This document shows, piece by piece, positions 56,982 to 63,008 of a DNA stretch of 64,000 bases. A model generated the notes under the pieces. It ran no database searches. It was not told where the DNA came from and worked only from the letters and a program-made list of their open reading frames with translations. Position 1 is the first letter of the stretch. The number at the start of each line of letters is the position of its first letter. The DNA is from the human T2T-CHM13v2.0 reference genome, Homo sapiens: contig CP086569.2 of the NCBI GenBank assembly GCA_009914755.4, forward strand, positions 22,624,001 through 22,688,000, written 5' to 3'. A program made the translations under genes and the position numbers.

Positions 56982-57572
56982 TGTTGGGAAACCAGCCCCA
57001 CAATGCCCCGTGGGTACCCTAAATCCAACAGAGACAAATAATTAGAAAGAGACAGAATGAGAGTTTAAAAGGCAGGTCCAGGGGACCAGAGAATTGGAGG
57101 CTTGCTCATGGCCTGGAGCTCTCAGCCACCACCCAATTTATTGCTTTACAAGCTCTTTGTTCTTAGGGCAGATCTGAGGGGTAGGAAGGGCTGAGGGAAA
57201 GGATTAATCAGTGAGGGAGAACCCGTGAGTCATTCAATAAGATGTATAGCAGTAGCAGTTTCTGTGAATTTCCTCTAGCAAAGGCGTGTGTCTAAACTAC
57301 TTAATATATTTAACTTATCAGGACTGAAATGGATGGGAGAAGGCTTCAGGAGAAGCCAAGATGTTTGATTATACTCCACTGCTTCAAGAGAGTGTTATTT
57401 CCCTGAGCAACCTGTGGCAGCCCGCTGAGCTGTTATGCTCTCTGGGCATAAGGACATGAAGGCAATAAGGAGACTTTTCTCCTCAGAGGCCACCCATGGG
57501 AGTGACTCCCCATGGGAGTCTCACACCGGAGAGATCAACTCATTTGGCATCCCAGAAACTCTCTTTCCCACA
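56982..57572 (-). mobile_element. HERV-K-type 3' LTR
   Basis: Aligns with 62125-63008 minus the Alu. A polypurine tract (+ strand: tgtcccacttttttgtctccattttttt, 57573-57600) lies immediately internal. Confidence 0.8.
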
Positions 57573-58225
57573 TGTCCCACTTTTTTGTCTCCATTTTTTT
57601 AAATTAATAACCACCATTGCTATCATAGCTCATTCACGGTGTCTATCTACTCTCCCAAGATGCTGTCTGCATCAGTAGGTTAAAAAAAAAACAGCATAAA
57701 AAGACACACACCAAAGTAATATTTGCAATTGATGATCCACCTATGGTTTTAATTCACTTTAAAGGATTAGTGTTAAAAAGGCCCTCAGTGGTTCCAGCAA
57801 GAATATCAGCTCTAGGCAACAGGATGGGATGAGCCTGAGATGCGGCAAAAAGTTGTTTTTTCAGTTTAGCAGGATCTAATGTTAAATTATCTTCTTCTCC
57901 TGGTAGGTGATGTCTAATCATCTCCCAGTGGTGTTCAGTGATATTATAAGAGCTAGGAGGAATACGAAATCAGAAGTATTCCAATCACATTGCATTTGAA
58001 TTCTATGCTCCAAGTTCATAATCCGATCTCCCATTCAGATTACTGTCTGATGATCATTAATTTGATTTGCCAATTTTTGATCTATTTGGCTTTGGGAATT
58101 CCAAAGCTTGGAAGAATTTTTCTGCCAACTATGCACAGCGCTCGCAGGTTGAATAGAAGAGTGCAAAGCAAAGCCAGCAGCAGCAGCTATAGCTGTGACA
58201 GATTTAAGACCCATGATGAGAGCTA

Positions 58226-58621
58226 TTAAAGTAAATATGAATCTCTTTGATCATTAAGTATTTCTTTTAGTACTGCAGTGATAATATATATGGAGGAAGA
58301 GGACTCCCAAGTTCTATTGAGGGAAACAGGTATCCAAACTCCTTCTTGGGCCCTAACCAGTAAAATGCTATTATCTTTATTAAAGGTAGAATTAATGCAG
58401 GTAAAAATATGACAGCTGAGGCATGATATGCTTTGAGAGTCAAGCAGGATATTAACTTTTCCTGCTGCTAACATAAAAGGAGGTTTAACACAACTCTGTA
58501 ATGGGACTGTCTGATTAGATATCATGGCTACAACAAATTGAAGTTTTTTACTCTGGGTGTCTGTTTTATATTCTCCTTTCTGAATCCCAACTGGGGTTTG
58601 AGACATCATTAATTTCCACAT
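58226..58621 (-). pseudogene. HERV-K env remnant (SU/TM junction region)
   Basis: The ORF ...[43 protein letters not shown]... parallels HERV-K Env ...[37 protein letters not shown].... Confidence 0.75.
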
Positions 58622-59838
58622 TTTGGATGTTCTGGACTTATAATTGGATCAATCATTTTTGGCTTTGGAGGAGCCATACCGTTCTCTCCTACTTAATAGG
58701 GTAATTTGTTTCAATTCTTCTATATAATATTGGTACATTATCTGGGTAGTCGTTTGTAAAGGAGTCTCTCTAAAGTCTTTGCTCTGTCCAGTACAATTTA
58801 CTGAAAAGTGACCCCTAGGGGCCCAATCAGTGATGAATCCAATGGAATTATTTTCAATACTGCAGCACTGTTTGCAATACAGTCTTCCCAGGTTAGCATC
58901 TCTAGCTTTTCAGATCATTTAGTGGCCTGCCTGGGGCAGGACTTCTTATTAGGTTTAAATTTATTAATCTGATGATGTGTCATAACATAGCCATGCTCAA
59001 GGTATTTAATTGTGTCCAAAGATTGAAATGTTCTTCCACTGATTACATGAATAGAGGCCTTTCATCCATTATGTGCAGGGACATAAACCATCTGACATTG
59101 TTGATCATAATTTAAACATCCTGCTGTTGGCCCCAGGCAGATGGGAGGAAAGTGATAACCAATGGAAACTTTCATTAACATTCCTTCCTCCTCTGGATGA
59201 GTAGGACCTCAGTTATCTATTGGTCCAGGCATCCAGACACTAGCATTAACATAACCTTCACTGGGGCATCTAACCTTGTAACAGGTCTAATCAGTGGTGG
59301 GAATGGGATGTAGGTCCAATAAGTGTAATTTTGATCTGCCCCTCTGCAGGGAGACTCACCACCAAGGGGATTACCACCATCATAGCTACCATTAGATTAC
59401 TGGTGGTCAGCAGCTTGTGCTGAGACCTCAGTTTCTCTTCTTCAATGTGAGCTAGTCTCCTCATCTGCCCCCAGGTCAGTGGAGTTGTTTAGTGAGTTTT
59501 ACTGGTTTCCACCTGCTTAACAAAGATGTTCATCTGAGCCATCTGATGAACTGGTGGTGCAAGGACTTTCTGAGGTCTTTTCCTTTTGCTTGAATTCTGG
59601 CTCTTGGCACCACTTAACATGTCTTGTGGGTACCCAGAGAAGAAGCTGATTCTCTCCTGGTGAGATGCAAGCAAATCCTCACCCCCAAAAAGACCCACTG
59701 GGGCCTTTTGTTTGGGCCAGTTTTTTGGCTATTGATAAAGAACTATGATTGACATGTCTGCTCTTGTGTCGACCAGACCCTTAAATTGTTTTCCTTGAAT
59801 AGTGACCATACAAATAGGTCTATTGTCAGAGACTTGAT

Positions 59839-60210
59839 TTACCCAATGGGCAGCCTTGCCTGCTGAATTTGTGCTTCCAAATCCTCCTTTTTTTCTGAGC
59901 TTTCTCGTAACTTAACATATGGTAAAAGCAACAGTTGAGCTATTCTGTCATCTGGATTAGTACTCCAGTGGACAATGGAGGAAATAACAATTTGAATTTC
60001 TCCCTGGCAATCAGAGTCCACTACTCCGGTATGTACTTGAATTCCCTTTAATTTTAAGCTGGACCTTCCCAGTATAAGTCCCACCATGCCATTTGACAAT
60101 GGGCGATAGACTCCCATTGGGATCTTCCTGCGAGTCTCCCCAGGAAGGAGGAATACAGCTTTTGTACAGCATGTATTTACTGCCCCACTTTTATCTCTGG
60201 AGGGGGACAA
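59839..60210 (-). pseudogene. HERV-K pro-region dUTPase remnant
   Basis: ...GVYRPLSNGMVGLILGRSSLKLKGIQVHTGVVDSDCQGEIQIVISS...RIAQLLLLPYV matches the betaretroviral dUTPase motif pattern (GLILGRSS...GVID.D..GEI...IAQL). Confidence 0.75.
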
Positions 60211-60503
60211 TTGCTGTACATTTGTAAAGGGATAGACTGGGATGGGAATACTCTGTTTGGAGTCAGGGATGACCTGCCCTGAATTGGGAATGCCCTGTTT
60301 TGAATCAGGGCCTGGTCCTGAGTTTTGCCTTTTTTGGCTCTTTGTACACTCTCTTTTTGTATGTACTATCCGTCCACAATTATATCAAGATCCAGGGAAC
60401 ACTCATGTGCTTTTTGTTACCCTTAGTCCAGCCACTGCCTGAGAAAGGAGGTTGGCCTTATATAAGTGCCCCTCAATGCCATCACAGGCTGTAATATATT
60501 CAC

Positions 60504-61481: not shown

Positions 61482-61955
61482 TCATTCTGCACCTTCCCCT
61501 AAAGGCACAGTAGGGGGAACTGTTTCTTTCATATGTTTTTGGAAGTTAGCATATATTCCTTCCCATTTCGCCCCTTTTTTTTTTAAACTAGACAGTGATG
61601 GTTCACTTTGCTGATTATCAGACTCCTGATTATTAAACTTTTCTATGTCATCCTGAAACTTCTCCTTCTTCTCCTCAGTGTGGAAGGGCTCCAGTGCTGT
61701 TTTAATTGCTGACCACCCAGAGCAAGTGGAGAAGGGAATATTGTGGCCCTCTTGGTGTGCTCCTTTTAAGTCTGGTCCGATCTTGTCCCAGTCTTTTACA
61801 TTCATGGTTCCATATTCTGGGAACCAAGGAGAATACTTTTCTATGAGATGGAAAACAGAGGTGAGATTCTGAGTACTCATAATTACTCCTCTATGGCTCA
61901 ATAACTGCTGCACCAGGCTTAAGTAATTAGCAAACTTGTTTTCACCCTGACCCAT
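61482..61955 (-). pseudogene. HERV-K gag N-terminus (matrix), starting MGQ
   Basis: MGQGENKFANYLSLVQQLLSHRGVIMSTQNLTSVFHLIEKYSPWFPEYGTMNVKDWDKIGPDLK...NIPFSTCSGWSAIKTALEPFHTEE. Compare HERV-K Gag MGQTKSKIKSKYASYLSFIKILLKRGGVKVSTKNLIKLFQIIEQFCPWFPEQGTLDLKDWKRIGKELK...NIIPLTVWNDWAIIKAALEPFQTEE. Confidence 0.85.
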
Positions 61956-62104
61956 ATTTTCCTGAGGTTGCCCTGGAATTCTCTGAGAGCCCTACTGACC
62001 TATAGAGCGTGAGTGAAAAGGTACTCAGCTGTCCTTTGTCAGTCATCCTCCACTTTCCATGCTCTGGCTTTTCCTCACTGGATTATTTGTAGATATTATA
62101 GGGA

Positions 62105-62122
62105 GCACCATGTTGGGCACCA
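62105..62122 (-). other. PBS complementary to tRNA-Lys (HERV-K type), with two CpG-decay substitutions
   Basis: + strand gcaccatgttgggcacca versus the reverse complement of the canonical PBS(Lys) gccccacgttgggcgcca: 15 of 18 match, and two of the three mismatches are CG->TG / CG->CA. A 2-nt spacer precedes the LTR. Confidence 0.65.
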
Positions 62123-62124
62123 GA

Positions 62125-63008
62125 TGTTGAGGAAAGAAGCCCCACACCAGCGGGTGGGTCCCCCAAGTCCAGCGGAGACAAAGGAATTAGAAAGAAGCAG
62201 AATGAGAGTTTAAAAGGCAGGTCCAGGGGACGGGAGAATTGGAGGCTTGCTCATGGCCCGGAGCTCTCAGCCTCCACTCAATTTATTGGTTTACAAGCTC
62301 TTTGTTCTTAGGTCAGATGGGAGGTGTAGGAAGGGATAAGGAAAAGGATTAATCAGTGATGGAGAACTCATGAGTCATTCAATAAGATGTATAGCAGTGG
62401 TGGTTTCTGTGAATTTCCTCTAGCAAAGGCATGTGTCTAAACTACTTAAGACTTTTAACAGCCGGGTGCAGTGGCTCACGCCTGTAATCCTAGCACTTTC
62501 GGAGGCCGAGGTGGACAGATCACGAGGTCAGGAGATCAAGACCACGGTGAAACGCTGTCTCTACTAAAAATACAAAAAATTAGCTGGGCACAGTGGTGGG
62601 GGTCTGTAGTCCCAGCTACTTGGGATGCTGAGGCAGGAGAATGGTGTGAACCTGGGCGGTGGAGCTTGCAGTGAGCCAAGATCGCACCACTGCACTCCAG
62701 CCTGGACGAGAGAGTGAGACTCCGTCTCAAAAATAATAATGATAAAAATAATAAAAATAACTTATTGGGACTGAAATGGGTGGGAGTGGGTTTCAGGAGA
62801 AGACAAGATATTTGATTGCACGCCACTGCTTCAAGGGAGTGTTATTTCCCTGAGCAACCTGTAGCATGCCACTGAGCTATTATGCTCTCAACATGACATG
62901 AAGGCAATAAGGAGCCTTTTCTCCTCAGAGGCCACGCATGGCTCCCCATGGCTGTCTCACACAGGGGAGACCAACTCATCTGGCATCCCAGAAACTCTCT
63001 TTCCCACA
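62125..63008 (-). mobile_element. HERV-K-type 5' LTR carrying a secondary Alu insertion
   Basis: Collinear with the 3' LTR, except that 62461-62762 is an inserted Alu. Confidence 0.8.
62461..62762 (+). mobile_element. Young-looking Alu (many intact CpGs) inserted into the HERV-K 5' LTR only
   Basis: gccgggtgcagtggctcacgcctgtaatcctagcactttcggaggccgaggtggacagatcacgaggtcaggagatcaagacc...gagcttgcagtgagccaagatcgcaccactgcactccagcctggacgagagagtgagactccgtctcaaaaataataatgataaaaataataaaaataa. It is absent from the homologous position in the 3' LTR (~57310). Confidence 0.85.

What the first reader, a model, noticed from the sequence alone, without database searches (positions are those of the whole stretch)
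56982..63008. Pol-deleted HERV-K (HML-type) provirus with intact TSD nested in the inverted macrosatellite arm
The 6-bp TSD GAGAAT is intact and there are two ~590-bp LTRs. The minus-strand LTR starts TGTGGGAAAGAGAG. The tRNA-Lys PBS differs from canonical only at CpG-decay sites, and the gag start MGQ... is intact. The element keeps gag-MA, gag-CA, dUTPase and env fragments but lacks pol.

It interrupts a macrosatellite unit 116 bp after the anchor motif, and the unit sequence resumes precisely after the TSD. The provirus therefore post-dates array formation.

LTR-LTR divergence (indels and substitutions visible by eye) gives a molecular clock for a minimum age of the array. The LTR length suggests an HML-1/HML-3-like group (LTR14/MER9-type), but I cannot assign it from memory.
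Basis: partly seen in the sequence, partly recalled or inferred. Interest (0 to 1): 0.5.

Follow-up and report, generated by a model that had tools for sequence, protein, structure and literature searches.

The report
Pol-deleted HERV-K HML-9 provirus, human Y
This is a dead, catalogued endogenous retrovirus (HERV-K group HML-9, LTR14C type) on the human Y chromosome; it arrived already lacking its polymerase gene and was later copied to other Y sites by DNA duplication, so it is real but ordinary.

Summary
A minus-strand provirus occupies 56982-63008: a 591-nt 3'LTR, a 4552-nt interior and a 5'LTR split by an AluY-like insert. It has a GAGAAT target-site duplication, a tRNA-Lys primer binding site and an MGQ gag start.

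Eight paralogous 2.5-kb units carry the uninterrupted site. Four of them have exactly one GAGAAT there.

The group guess (HML-1/HML-3) is wrong. The element is HML-9 (HERVK14C/LTR14C). It is 84-89% identical along its whole length to the full-length 16p12.3 HML-9 provirus. Two stretches match, base for base, published entry chrY:21845475-21850069 (Yq11.223, hg38).

The pol loss is not local decay. A 2746-nt deletion bounded by an 8-nt microhomology removes the protease C-half, G-patch, RT, RNase H and most of integrase. The autosomal 6p12.3 copy has the same junction, so a pol-less variant was probably mobilised in trans.

The Yp11.2 and second Yq11.223 copies carry the same Alu in the 5'LTR, and 5' and 3' LTRs cluster by position. 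These Y copies are therefore DNA duplicates of one integration.

LTR-LTR K2P distance is 0.126, about 29-31 My at 0.2%/My. Array units are only 72-75% identical, so the provirus gives a weak minimum age for the array. Already known; low interest.

The parts
56976..56981 (.). Left copy of the 6-bp target-site duplication, GAGAAT
   Evidence: Four of eight aligned paralogous units have exactly one GAGAAT at this position.
56982..57572 (-). 3' LTR (LTR14C type), 591 nt, TG...CA ends, AATAAA signal retained
   Evidence: It is 84.7% identical to the 16p12.3 HML-9 LTR. It matches the published chrY:21845475 record exactly from 56985 onward.
57573..57600 (-). Polypurine tract region next to the 3' LTR (sense AAAAAAATGGAGACAAAAAAGTGGGACA)
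   Evidence: Read directly from the sequence; 16p12.3 has the equivalent tract.
57574..59585 (-). env, near full length in nucleotides but with many stops and frameshifts. HERV-K_REC-like N-terminus about 59342-59560, HERV-K_env_2 58778-59268, GP41 57978-58175.
   Evidence: Pfam. Colinear with 16p12.3 at 86.7% identity. Published env coverage 99.32%.
59613..59683 (-). Remnant of the pol 3' end (integrase C-terminal DNA-binding domain)
   Evidence: Pfam IN_DBD_C, profile positions 12-43, E=0.0013, below the curated cut-off. The same domain is complete in 16p12.3.
59683..59687 (-). Junction of the 2746-nt pol deletion (16p12.3 sense positions 3127-5872 absent)
   Evidence: The same junction occurs in 6p12.3 and Yp11.2. 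The breakpoints in 16p12.3 share an 8-nt microhomology, TGGGGTCA.
59684..60312 (-). pro remnant: dUTPase (59884-60174) and the N-terminal half of the protease (59684-59827)
   Evidence: Pfam dUTPase E=3e-15; RVP profile positions 2-49 of 101 only. 89.0% identical to 16p12.3.
60313..60316 (-). Junction of a 132-nt in-frame gag deletion that removes the second zinc-knuckle region
60316..61955 (-). gag: MA 61689-61928, CA N-terminal domain 60761-61084, CA C-terminal domain 60516-60653, one degraded zinc knuckle. The ATG at 61955 opens a 157-aa ORF.
61206..61297 (-). 46-bp tandem duplication inside gag, private to this copy
   Evidence: 98% identity between the two copies. The Yp11.2 copy has one copy only.
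62105..62122 (-). Primer binding site, tRNA-Lys type (TGGTGCCCAACATGGTGC), 2 nt after the 5' LTR
   Evidence: compared with the 16p12.3 PBS.
62125..63008 (-). 5' LTR (582 nt of LTR14C), interrupted by an Alu
   Evidence: It is missing from the published catalogue entry, which ends at window 61579.
62460..62761 (+). AluY-like element, antisense to the provirus, with a 12-bp internal deletion, an A-rich tail and a short duplicated ...AAC
   Evidence: The same Alu is at the same site in the Yp11.2 copy and in the Yq11.223 copy at 21.58 Mb.
63009..63014 (.). Right copy of the target-site duplication, GAGAAT
47578..64000 (+). Arm of the diverged 2.5-kb tandem array that hosts the provirus. The opposite arm is 31178-47562.

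Best explanation
[quoted passage not shown] It is at Yq11.223, hg38 about chrY:21,845,472-21,851,498, minus strand.

**Proposed history**
1. A pol-less HML-9 genome arose by deletion between two copies of TGGGGTCA. This is typical of reverse-transcriptase template switching (inferred).
2. That genome kept the LTRs, PBS, polypurine tract, leader, gag, dUTPase and env. It was therefore packaged and reverse-transcribed with enzymes supplied by intact HML-9 viruses. It integrated at several loci, including 6p12.3, 19q13.2 and one Y site. Independent loci sharing the junction is shown; trans-complementation is inferred.
3. The Y integration landed in a unit of an already diverged 2.5-kb tandem array and made a 6-bp GAGAAT duplication (shown).
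4. An AluY-like element then inserted into U3 of the 5' LTR (shown).
5. The provirus with its Alu was copied to other Y sites by segmental duplication. This copy's lineage split first, and the Yp11.2 and Yq11.223-21.58 Mb copies split later (shown by shared Alu and LTR clustering).
6. This copy then decayed: more than 70 stops in each reading frame and a private 46-bp duplication.

Today it has no coding capacity. Any present role would be LTR-driven transcription, which was not tested.
For: **Identity**
- Two stretches of 1027 and 860 nt match published HML-9 record chrY_21845475_21850069 exactly.
- It is colinear with the full-length 16p12.3 HML-9 provirus at 84-89% identity, LTRs included.
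- LTR lengths are 582 and 591 nt, against a reference of 587.

**Retroviral hallmarks**
- Duplication, TG...CA ends and Lys PBS.
- Pfam Gag_p10, Gag_p24, dUTPase, RVP, HERV-K_env_2 and GP41.

**What is missing**
- The absent 16p12.3 segment encodes the protease C-half, G-patch, RVT_1, RVT_thumb, RNase_H, Integrase_Zn and rve.

**Deletion predates integration**
- The junction is the same in autosomal 6p12.3 and in Yp11.2.
- Published coverage of pro about 64-66% and pol about 6% recurs at 6p12.3, 19q13.2 and five Y loci.
- The chimpanzee chr6 and chr19 copies, paired with human 6p12.3 and 19q13.2 in the chimpanzee paper's table, show the same coverage pattern.
- The 6p12.3 3' LTR is no closer to ours (13.6%) than to 16p12.3 (11.5-12.8%).

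**DNA-level duplication**
- The Yp11.2 copy is colinear with ours over 5961 nt at 89.1% identity, through the same Alu.
- LTR distances: 5'-5' 9.5% and 3'-3' 9.9%, against 5'-3' 12.1-13.2%.
- The Yq11.223 copy at 21.58 Mb has the same Alu; it is 96.3% identical to Yp11.2 and 89.5% to ours.
- An Alu in the U3 of the 5' LTR alone cannot be inherited through an RNA copy (established retroviral replication).
- The chimpanzee paper reports identical flanks among chimpanzee Y copies and cites Y amplification of HERV-K14C.
Against: - No Dfam or Repbase consensus for other HML groups was available. The HML-9 assignment rests on one full-length reference, the published catalogue and its trees, not on a head-to-head comparison done here.
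- The flanks of the other Y copies were not available. The prediction that they also sit in 2.5-kb unit sequence is untested, and it is unknown which Y locus is the original integration site.
- Trans-complementation is inferred from shared breakpoints. Gene conversion between loci could in principle copy a deletion, although the autosomal and Y copies have distinct LTRs.
- The third PBS mismatch is not a CpG change.
- The integrase remnant falls below Pfam's curated cut-off.
Confidence: 0.9

Rival explanations
1. The provirus integrated as a full-length HML-9 element and lost pol in place, by recombination or replication slippage at this locus. The deletion is then a private decay event.
For: Deletions between short direct repeats can also arise in chromosomal DNA. 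Breakpoint microhomology does not distinguish RNA-level from DNA-level events. All Y copies could have inherited an in-place deletion through duplication.
Against: The same junction is present in the autosomal 6p12.3 copy. That copy lacks the Y copies' relationship: its LTR is 13.6-14.7% from ours, and it has its own Alu in env. Published pro and pol coverage is the same at 19q13.2 and in the chimpanzee chr6 and chr19 copies paired with the human autosomal ones.
Confidence: 0.06
2. The several Y copies are independent retroviral integrations, reflecting a preference of HML-9 for the Y. This is how the catalogue papers count them, and this locus would be one of eight separate events.
For: The catalogue papers report a significant excess of proviruses on the Y and interpret it as accumulation of integrations. 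This copy has its own clean duplication.
Against: Three Y copies share one Alu at the same LTR position, in the same orientation and with the same 12-bp internal deletion. LTRs cluster 5' with 5' and 3' with 3'. Whole-element divergence between copies (about 8.6% mismatches) is lower than the LTR-LTR divergence within a copy (11.6%).
Confidence: 0.04
3. The element belongs to another HERV-K group (HML-1/LTR14A-B, HML-10/LTR14 or HML-3/MER9), as the first reader suggested from LTR length.
For: LTR14-family LTRs have similar lengths, and no competitor consensus sequences were available for direct comparison.
Against: The element is 84-89% identical over the LTRs and the whole interior to a provirus that the catalogue places with the Dfam HML-9 reference. 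It is itself a listed HML-9 entry. Solo LTR14C copies begin with the same sequence.
Confidence: 0.02

Closest known systems
HERV-K(HML-9) / HERV-K14CI (Dfam HERVK14C-int with LTR14C); catalogue entry 'Yq11.223 chrY:21845475-21850069' in Jia et al. 2022 (PMC9178832)
   Same: It is the same locus: exact sequence match over the stretches compared. LTR type and length are the same, and pro (about 65%), pol (about 6%) and env (about 99%) coverage match.
   Different: The published entry stops in gag and scores the 5' LTR as 0% and the LTR age as NA. Here the 5' LTR (split by an Alu), the PBS, the gag start and both duplication copies are present. The provirus is therefore 6027 bp, with LTR-LTR p=0.1155.
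Sister pol-deleted HML-9 copies at 6p12.3 and 19q13.2 (autosomal)
   Same: The pol-deletion junction is the same (checked for 6p12.3). Per the published percentages, 6p12.3 also has a gag shortfall of about 130 nt.
   Different: They are at different loci with different LTR sequences, lack the 5' LTR Alu, and 6p12.3 has its own Alu in env. 19q13.2 keeps full gag by the published percentages.
Y-chromosomal HML-9 copies at Yp11.2 (chrY:9273707) and Yq11.223 (chrY:21580120, TTTY13 region)
   Same: They have the same provirus structure and the same 5' LTR Alu with its 12-bp deletion. They are DNA-level paralogues of this copy.
   Different: They are about 10.5-11% diverged from this copy and 3.7% from each other. 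They lack the 46-bp gag duplication. Yp11.2 has an extra 17-nt loss at the gag deletion and its own small duplication.
HERV-K14I env-less variants and other non-autonomous ERV lineages with 'uniform deletions' (Flockerzi et al. 2005, J Virol 79:2941; content recalled from memory, citation confirmed)
   Same: A defective internal-deletion variant is propagated at several loci, presumably with proteins supplied in trans.
   Different: Here pol, not env, is missing, and much of the copy number comes from Y segmental duplication rather than retrotransposition.

Membership tests
HERV-K (class II, betaretrovirus-like ERV) | Primer binding site complementary to tRNA-Lys | tested here: met
   The PBS TGGTGCCCAACATGGTGC lies 2 nt after the 5' LTR. 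It matches 15/18 positions of the canonical Lys(CUU) site (canonical sequence from memory). 16p12.3 has TGGCACCCAACGTGGGGC.
HERV-K (class II, betaretrovirus-like ERV) | LTRs with TG...CA ends flanked by a 6-bp target-site duplication | tested here: met
   GAGAAT lies on both sides. Four of eight aligned paralogous units have it exactly once.
HERV-K (class II, betaretrovirus-like ERV) | Betaretroviral gene content: Gag_p10 matrix, dUTPase in the pro frame upstream of the protease, HERV-K type env | tested here: met
   Pfam Gag_p10 1e-20, dUTPase 3e-15, RVP 1e-10, HERV-K_env_2 2e-32.
HERV-K (class II, betaretrovirus-like ERV) | Reverse transcriptase and integrase of betaretroviral type (the basis of HML numbering) | tested here: not met
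   RT, RNase H and the integrase core are absent from this copy. They are present in the homologous segment of 16p12.3. The absence is a deletion, not evidence against ancestry.
HML-9 (HERVK14C-int / LTR14C) | LTR of about 587 bp homologous to LTR14C | tested here: met
   LTRs are 582 and 591 nt. They are 84-85% identical to the 16p12.3 LTRs and 85.3-86.4% to the 6p12.3 3' LTR. Solo LTR14C copies start with the same sequence.
HML-9 (HERVK14C-int / LTR14C) | Interior colinear with an HML-9 reference provirus | tested here: met
   gag 84.2%, pro 89.0%, integrase remnant plus env plus LTR 86.7%, all against 16p12.3.
HML-9 (HERVK14C-int / LTR14C) | Clusters with the HML-9 reference and apart from HML-1 to HML-8 and HML-10 in phylogeny | not tested
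Jia 2022 reports that its HML-9 gag, pro, pol and env sequences form a monophyletic cluster, and its catalogue includes this locus; whether this copy's own sequences were in those trees was not checked.
Pol-deleted HML-9 sublineage ('uniform deletion' variant) | Same deletion breakpoints at independent loci | tested here: met
   The junction ...GGTCTTnTTGGGGnnGAGGnTTTGCTTG... is shared by ours, 6p12.3 and Yp11.2. The parental sites in 16p12.3 share TGGGGTCA.
Macrosatellite (host array) | Tandem array of kilobase-sized units | tested here: met
   Spacing is about 2.45-2.51 kb. There are at least 13 units in two opposed arms, meeting at about 47,570.
Macrosatellite (host array) | High identity between units and copy-number polymorphism | tested here: not met
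   Units are only 72-75% identical to the interrupted unit. This is an old, non-homogenised tandem array. Polymorphism cannot be tested here.

The most novel reading that the evidence does not exclude
The excess of HML-9 'proviruses' on the human and chimpanzee Y, which the recent catalogue papers read as preferential accumulation of integrations, may stem largely from one integration into a 2.5-kb tandem-array unit. That integration would then have been carried around the Y by stepwise segmental duplication. The provirus-plus-Alu cassette would then be a dated marker for the order of Y amplicon formation, with this Yq11.223 copy as the earliest-branching lineage. A small associated correction is that the catalogue entry for this locus lacks its 5' LTR, PBS and gag start.
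Probability: 0.35. Interest if true: 0.3.

Novelty: already known. Interest (0 to 1): 0.12.

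Why it matters
It matters little beyond annotation. The element is a catalogued HML-9 provirus, and both the pol-deleted variant and the Y amplification of HERV-K14C are in the literature.

**What this check adds**
- The full 6027-bp structure for a locus published as a 4595-bp fragment, with an LTR-LTR divergence where the catalogue has 'NA'.
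- Direct evidence that at least three Y 'integrations' are one integration plus DNA duplication.
- A caution that LTR clocks and integration counts on the Y are unreliable.

As a dating tool for the host array the provirus is valid but weak, because the array units are far more diverged than the LTRs.

Tried and rejected
1. **Wrong locus match.** From the published table I first matched the element to the 6p12.3 copy (6051 bp; 5' LTR 99.15% = 582/587). The 6p12.3 5' LTR sequence differs at many positions, so I rejected this. Plus-strand search terms then found the true match on chrY.
2. **Orientation of search terms.** Sense-orientation terms found nothing for our copy, because the supplement stores minus-strand elements as plus-strand sequence.
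3. **Translation by DNA reference.** Frames with X in place of stops were used instead.
4. **Rfam.** A scan of the whole window found nothing.
5. **ORFs in the array.** An ORF scan of the 2.5-kb units found no ORF longer than 183 aa and no obvious ORF shared between units. The identity of the unit remains unknown, and one Y-repeat review had nothing relevant.
6. **Papers not held.** Flockerzi 2005 could not be read; Sin 2010 was not found by the keyword search. Their content is cited from memory or through the chimpanzee paper.
8. **First Alu excision.** My first excision of the Alu was shifted by 11 nt. It was redone with exact coordinates and the numbers were essentially unchanged.

Full report

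Yes. Reading 56700-64000 shows GAGAAT at 56976-56981 and again at 63009-63014. These copies directly abut a pair of direct repeats.

On the minus strand each repeat begins TGTGGGAAAGAGAG and ends ...CAACA. The downstream LTR (3' in element orientation) is 56982-57572, 591 nt. The upstream LTR is 62125-63008, 884 nt. Of that, 302 nt (62460-62761) are an Alu on the plus strand plus a short duplicated ...AAC, leaving 582 nt of LTR.

Two nucleotides after the 5' LTR lies TGGTGCCCAACATGGTGC (62105-62122). This is a tRNA-Lys(CUU)-type primer binding site with three mismatches to the canonical sequence as I recall it. Two are CpG transitions and one is G>T. The intact relative at 16p12.3 has TGGCACCCAACGTGGGGC.

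A purine tract precedes the 3' LTR. The gag ATG at 61955 opens a 157-aa ORF, MGQGENKF....

**2. Is the target-site duplication genuine?**

I joined the two flanks with a single GAGAAT and searched the window. The reconstructed site aligns straight across the junction with more than 10 other copies of a 2.5-kb repeat, at 70-77% identity.

In a multiple alignment of eight of them, four have exactly GAGAAT once at that position. The rest have single-copy variants such as GAGAAC, GAGAAA, GAGGAT and AACAAC. The duplication and the 'unit resumes precisely' statement are therefore confirmed by paralogous empty sites. The 'anchor motif' distance could not be assessed, because the motif is not defined in the finding.

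**3. What does the interior contain?**

Pfam scans of the three minus-strand frames, with stops masked, give in order:

| Domain | E-value | Note |
|---|---|---|
| Gag_p10 | 1e-20 | |
| Gag_p24 | 7e-24 | |
| Gag_p24_C | | |
| dUTPase | 3e-15 | |
| RVP | | profile positions 2-49 of 101 only |
| IN_DBD_C | 0.0013 | weak, below cut-off |
| HERV-K_REC | | weak |
| HERV-K_env_2 | 2e-32 | |
| GP41 | | |

There is no RT, RNase H or integrase core. Each frame has 72-84 stops, so nothing but the first 157 codons of gag is open.

**4. Which family, and which locus?**

The literature on HML-9 (Jia et al. 2022, PMC9178832) gives LTR14C as 587 bp. It lists a recurrent form with pro about 64-66%, pol about 6% and env about 99% of the reference at 6p12.3, 19q13.2 and several Y loci. 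That is exactly the pattern seen here.

The paper's supplementary FASTA let me test this by sequence:
- The record chrY_21845475_21850069 matches window 56985-58011 and 59280-60139 without a single difference.
- The window is therefore human Yq11.223, hg38 about chrY:21,788,491-21,852,490, plus strand.
- Against the full-length 16p12.3 HML-9 provirus (8572 nt), our element is colinear at 84-89% identity. This covers both LTRs, leader, gag, pro, the end of pol and env.
- No other HML-9 sequence is present in the window.

The group is HML-9, also called HERV-K14CI. I could not run a head-to-head comparison with other HML consensus sequences, so that part rests on the published trees.

**5. The published entry is truncated**

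The catalogue entry ends at window 61579, inside gag. It scores the 5' LTR as 0% and gives no LTR age.

The rest of gag, the PBS and the 5' LTR are plainly present. The provirus is 6027 bp, at chrY:21,845,472-21,851,498.

**6. The pol deletion is inherited, not local**

Relative to 16p12.3, sense positions 3127-5872 (2746 nt) are absent. That segment encodes the protease C-terminal half, G-patch, RVT_1, RVT_thumb, RNase H, Integrase_Zn, rve and the start of the integrase DNA-binding domain.

In 16p12.3 both breakpoints carry TGGGGTCA, and the deleted form retains one copy. The same junction is found in the autosomal 6p12.3 copy and in the Yp11.2 copy.

The 6p12.3 copy has different LTRs, 13.6-14.7% from ours, which is no closer than it is to 16p12.3. 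It also has its own Alu in env. It is therefore an independent integration. Chimpanzee chr6 and chr19 copies, paired with the human autosomal ones in the chimpanzee paper's table, have the same coverage pattern.

The simplest reading is that a pol-less genome arose once, probably by reverse-transcriptase template switching at the 8-nt repeat. It was then propagated with enzymes supplied by intact HML-9 viruses. The shared junction is shown; the mechanism is inferred.

A second, in-frame 132-nt deletion removes the second zinc-knuckle region of gag. Published gag percentages suggest that 6p12.3 and the Y copies share it and 19q13.2 does not. I did not check this at base level.

**7. The provirus was then copied as DNA**

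The Yp11.2 entry (chrY:9273707-9279611) aligns with ours over 5961 nt at 89.1% identity, straight through the Alu in the 5' LTR. The Alu sits at the same position and in the same orientation.

The Yq11.223 entry at 21.58 Mb (TTTY13 region) has the same Alu. It is 96.3% identical to Yp11.2 and 89.5% to ours over 655 nt.

LTR distances:

| Comparison | Distance |
|---|---|
| our 5' vs Yp 5' | 9.5% |
| our 3' vs Yp 3' | 9.9% |
| our 5' vs our 3' | 12.2% |
| Yp 5' vs Yp 3' | 13.2% |

An insertion confined to the 5' LTR U3 cannot pass through an RNA intermediate, because progeny U3 comes from the 3' LTR. Taken together, these results show one integration, then an Alu insertion, then stepwise segmental duplication. 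Our copy's lineage split first.

This agrees with literature cited in the chimpanzee HML-9 paper. That paper cites amplification of HERV-K14C during Y evolution (Sin et al. 2010) and itself reports identical flanks among chimpanzee Y copies. It also agrees with Flockerzi et al. 2005, which as I recall reported uniform deletions and misleading LTR ages for Y copies. I could not read that paper.

It does qualify the catalogue papers' reading of the Y excess as accumulated integrations. It also predicts that the other Y copies are flanked by GAGAAT and 2.5-kb unit sequence. I could not test this, because no flanks are in the data I could reach.

**8. Dating**

With the Alu removed, the LTRs align over 580 positions with 67 substitutions (35 transitions, 32 transversions) and four indel events:

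| Sites | p-distance | K2P |
|---|---|---|
| All | 0.1155 | 0.126 |
| Without CpG | 0.100 | 0.108 |

- With the catalogue's formula (0.2% per My, divided by 2) this gives 29-31 My.
- At 0.13% per My it gives about 48 My.
- Autosomal sister copies give 24-27.5 My; other Y copies give 35-48.5 My.
- So Y-linked copies run 'old'. This is consistent with male-biased mutation (established knowledge) and with Flockerzi's caveat.
- The split from the Yp11.2 lineage happened at roughly three quarters of the LTR-LTR distance.

**9. The host array**

The window holds at least 13 units of about 2.45-2.51 kb. They lie in one orientation from 31178 to 47562 and in the other from 47578 to the window end.

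Units are only 72-75% identical to the interrupted unit over 2-2.6 kb. That is more than twice the LTR-LTR divergence.

The units carry no obvious ORF shared between units and no Rfam family. I could not name them. With this divergence, 'macrosatellite' is a generous label.

**10. Verdict**

It is wrong on the HML group and incomplete on history: the pol deletion was inherited, and the provirus spread by DNA-level duplication.

The feature is a known, catalogued element of a known kind. Interest is low. The only new items are a corrected extent for one catalogue entry and explicit evidence that several Y 'integrations' are duplicates.

Noticed in passing
window 61580-63008 (hg38 about chrY:21,850,070-21,851,498): The published HML-9 catalogue entry for this locus (Jia 2022, #15) ends in gag and lists '5' LTR 0%, LTR age NA'. 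The rest of gag, the PBS and an Alu-split 5' LTR are present here.
   Followed up: yes
window 62460-62761: An AluY-like element with a 12-bp internal deletion (AluY 'TCCCGGCTAAAA' missing) sits in the 5' LTR. The same Alu is in the Yp11.2 and Yq11.223-21.58 Mb copies. The two Alus compared differ by 12%. The resemblance to the AluYd signature is from memory and was not confirmed.
   Followed up: partly
window 61206-61297: A 46-bp tandem duplication (98% identical) lies inside gag. It causes a frameshift, is absent from the Yp11.2 copy, and so arose after the duplication.
   Followed up: yes
window 60313-60316: Junction of a 132-nt in-frame gag deletion that removes the second zinc-knuckle region (QNSG|GPDSK). 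The Yp11.2 copy has lost a further 17 nt here.
   Followed up: partly
window 31178-64000: A 2.5-kb tandem array lies in two opposed arms that meet at about 47,562-47,578. Units are 72-75% identical. No obvious ORF is shared between units and there is no Rfam hit. The unit examined carries a short (CA)n tract (53366-53388). The identity of the unit is unknown.
   Followed up: partly
window 18706-18939, 20475-20660, 21197-21673: Three small tandem-repeat blocks (periods 80, 66 and 100/20 bp) lie in the non-array half of the window.
   Followed up: no
Jia 2022 Dataset S1, records chrY_9273707 and chrY_21580120: These two Y copies are 96.3% identical over 655 nt of 5' LTR plus Alu. Both are about 10.5-11% from the window copy, which implies at least two rounds of Y segmental duplication of very different age.
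   Followed up: partly
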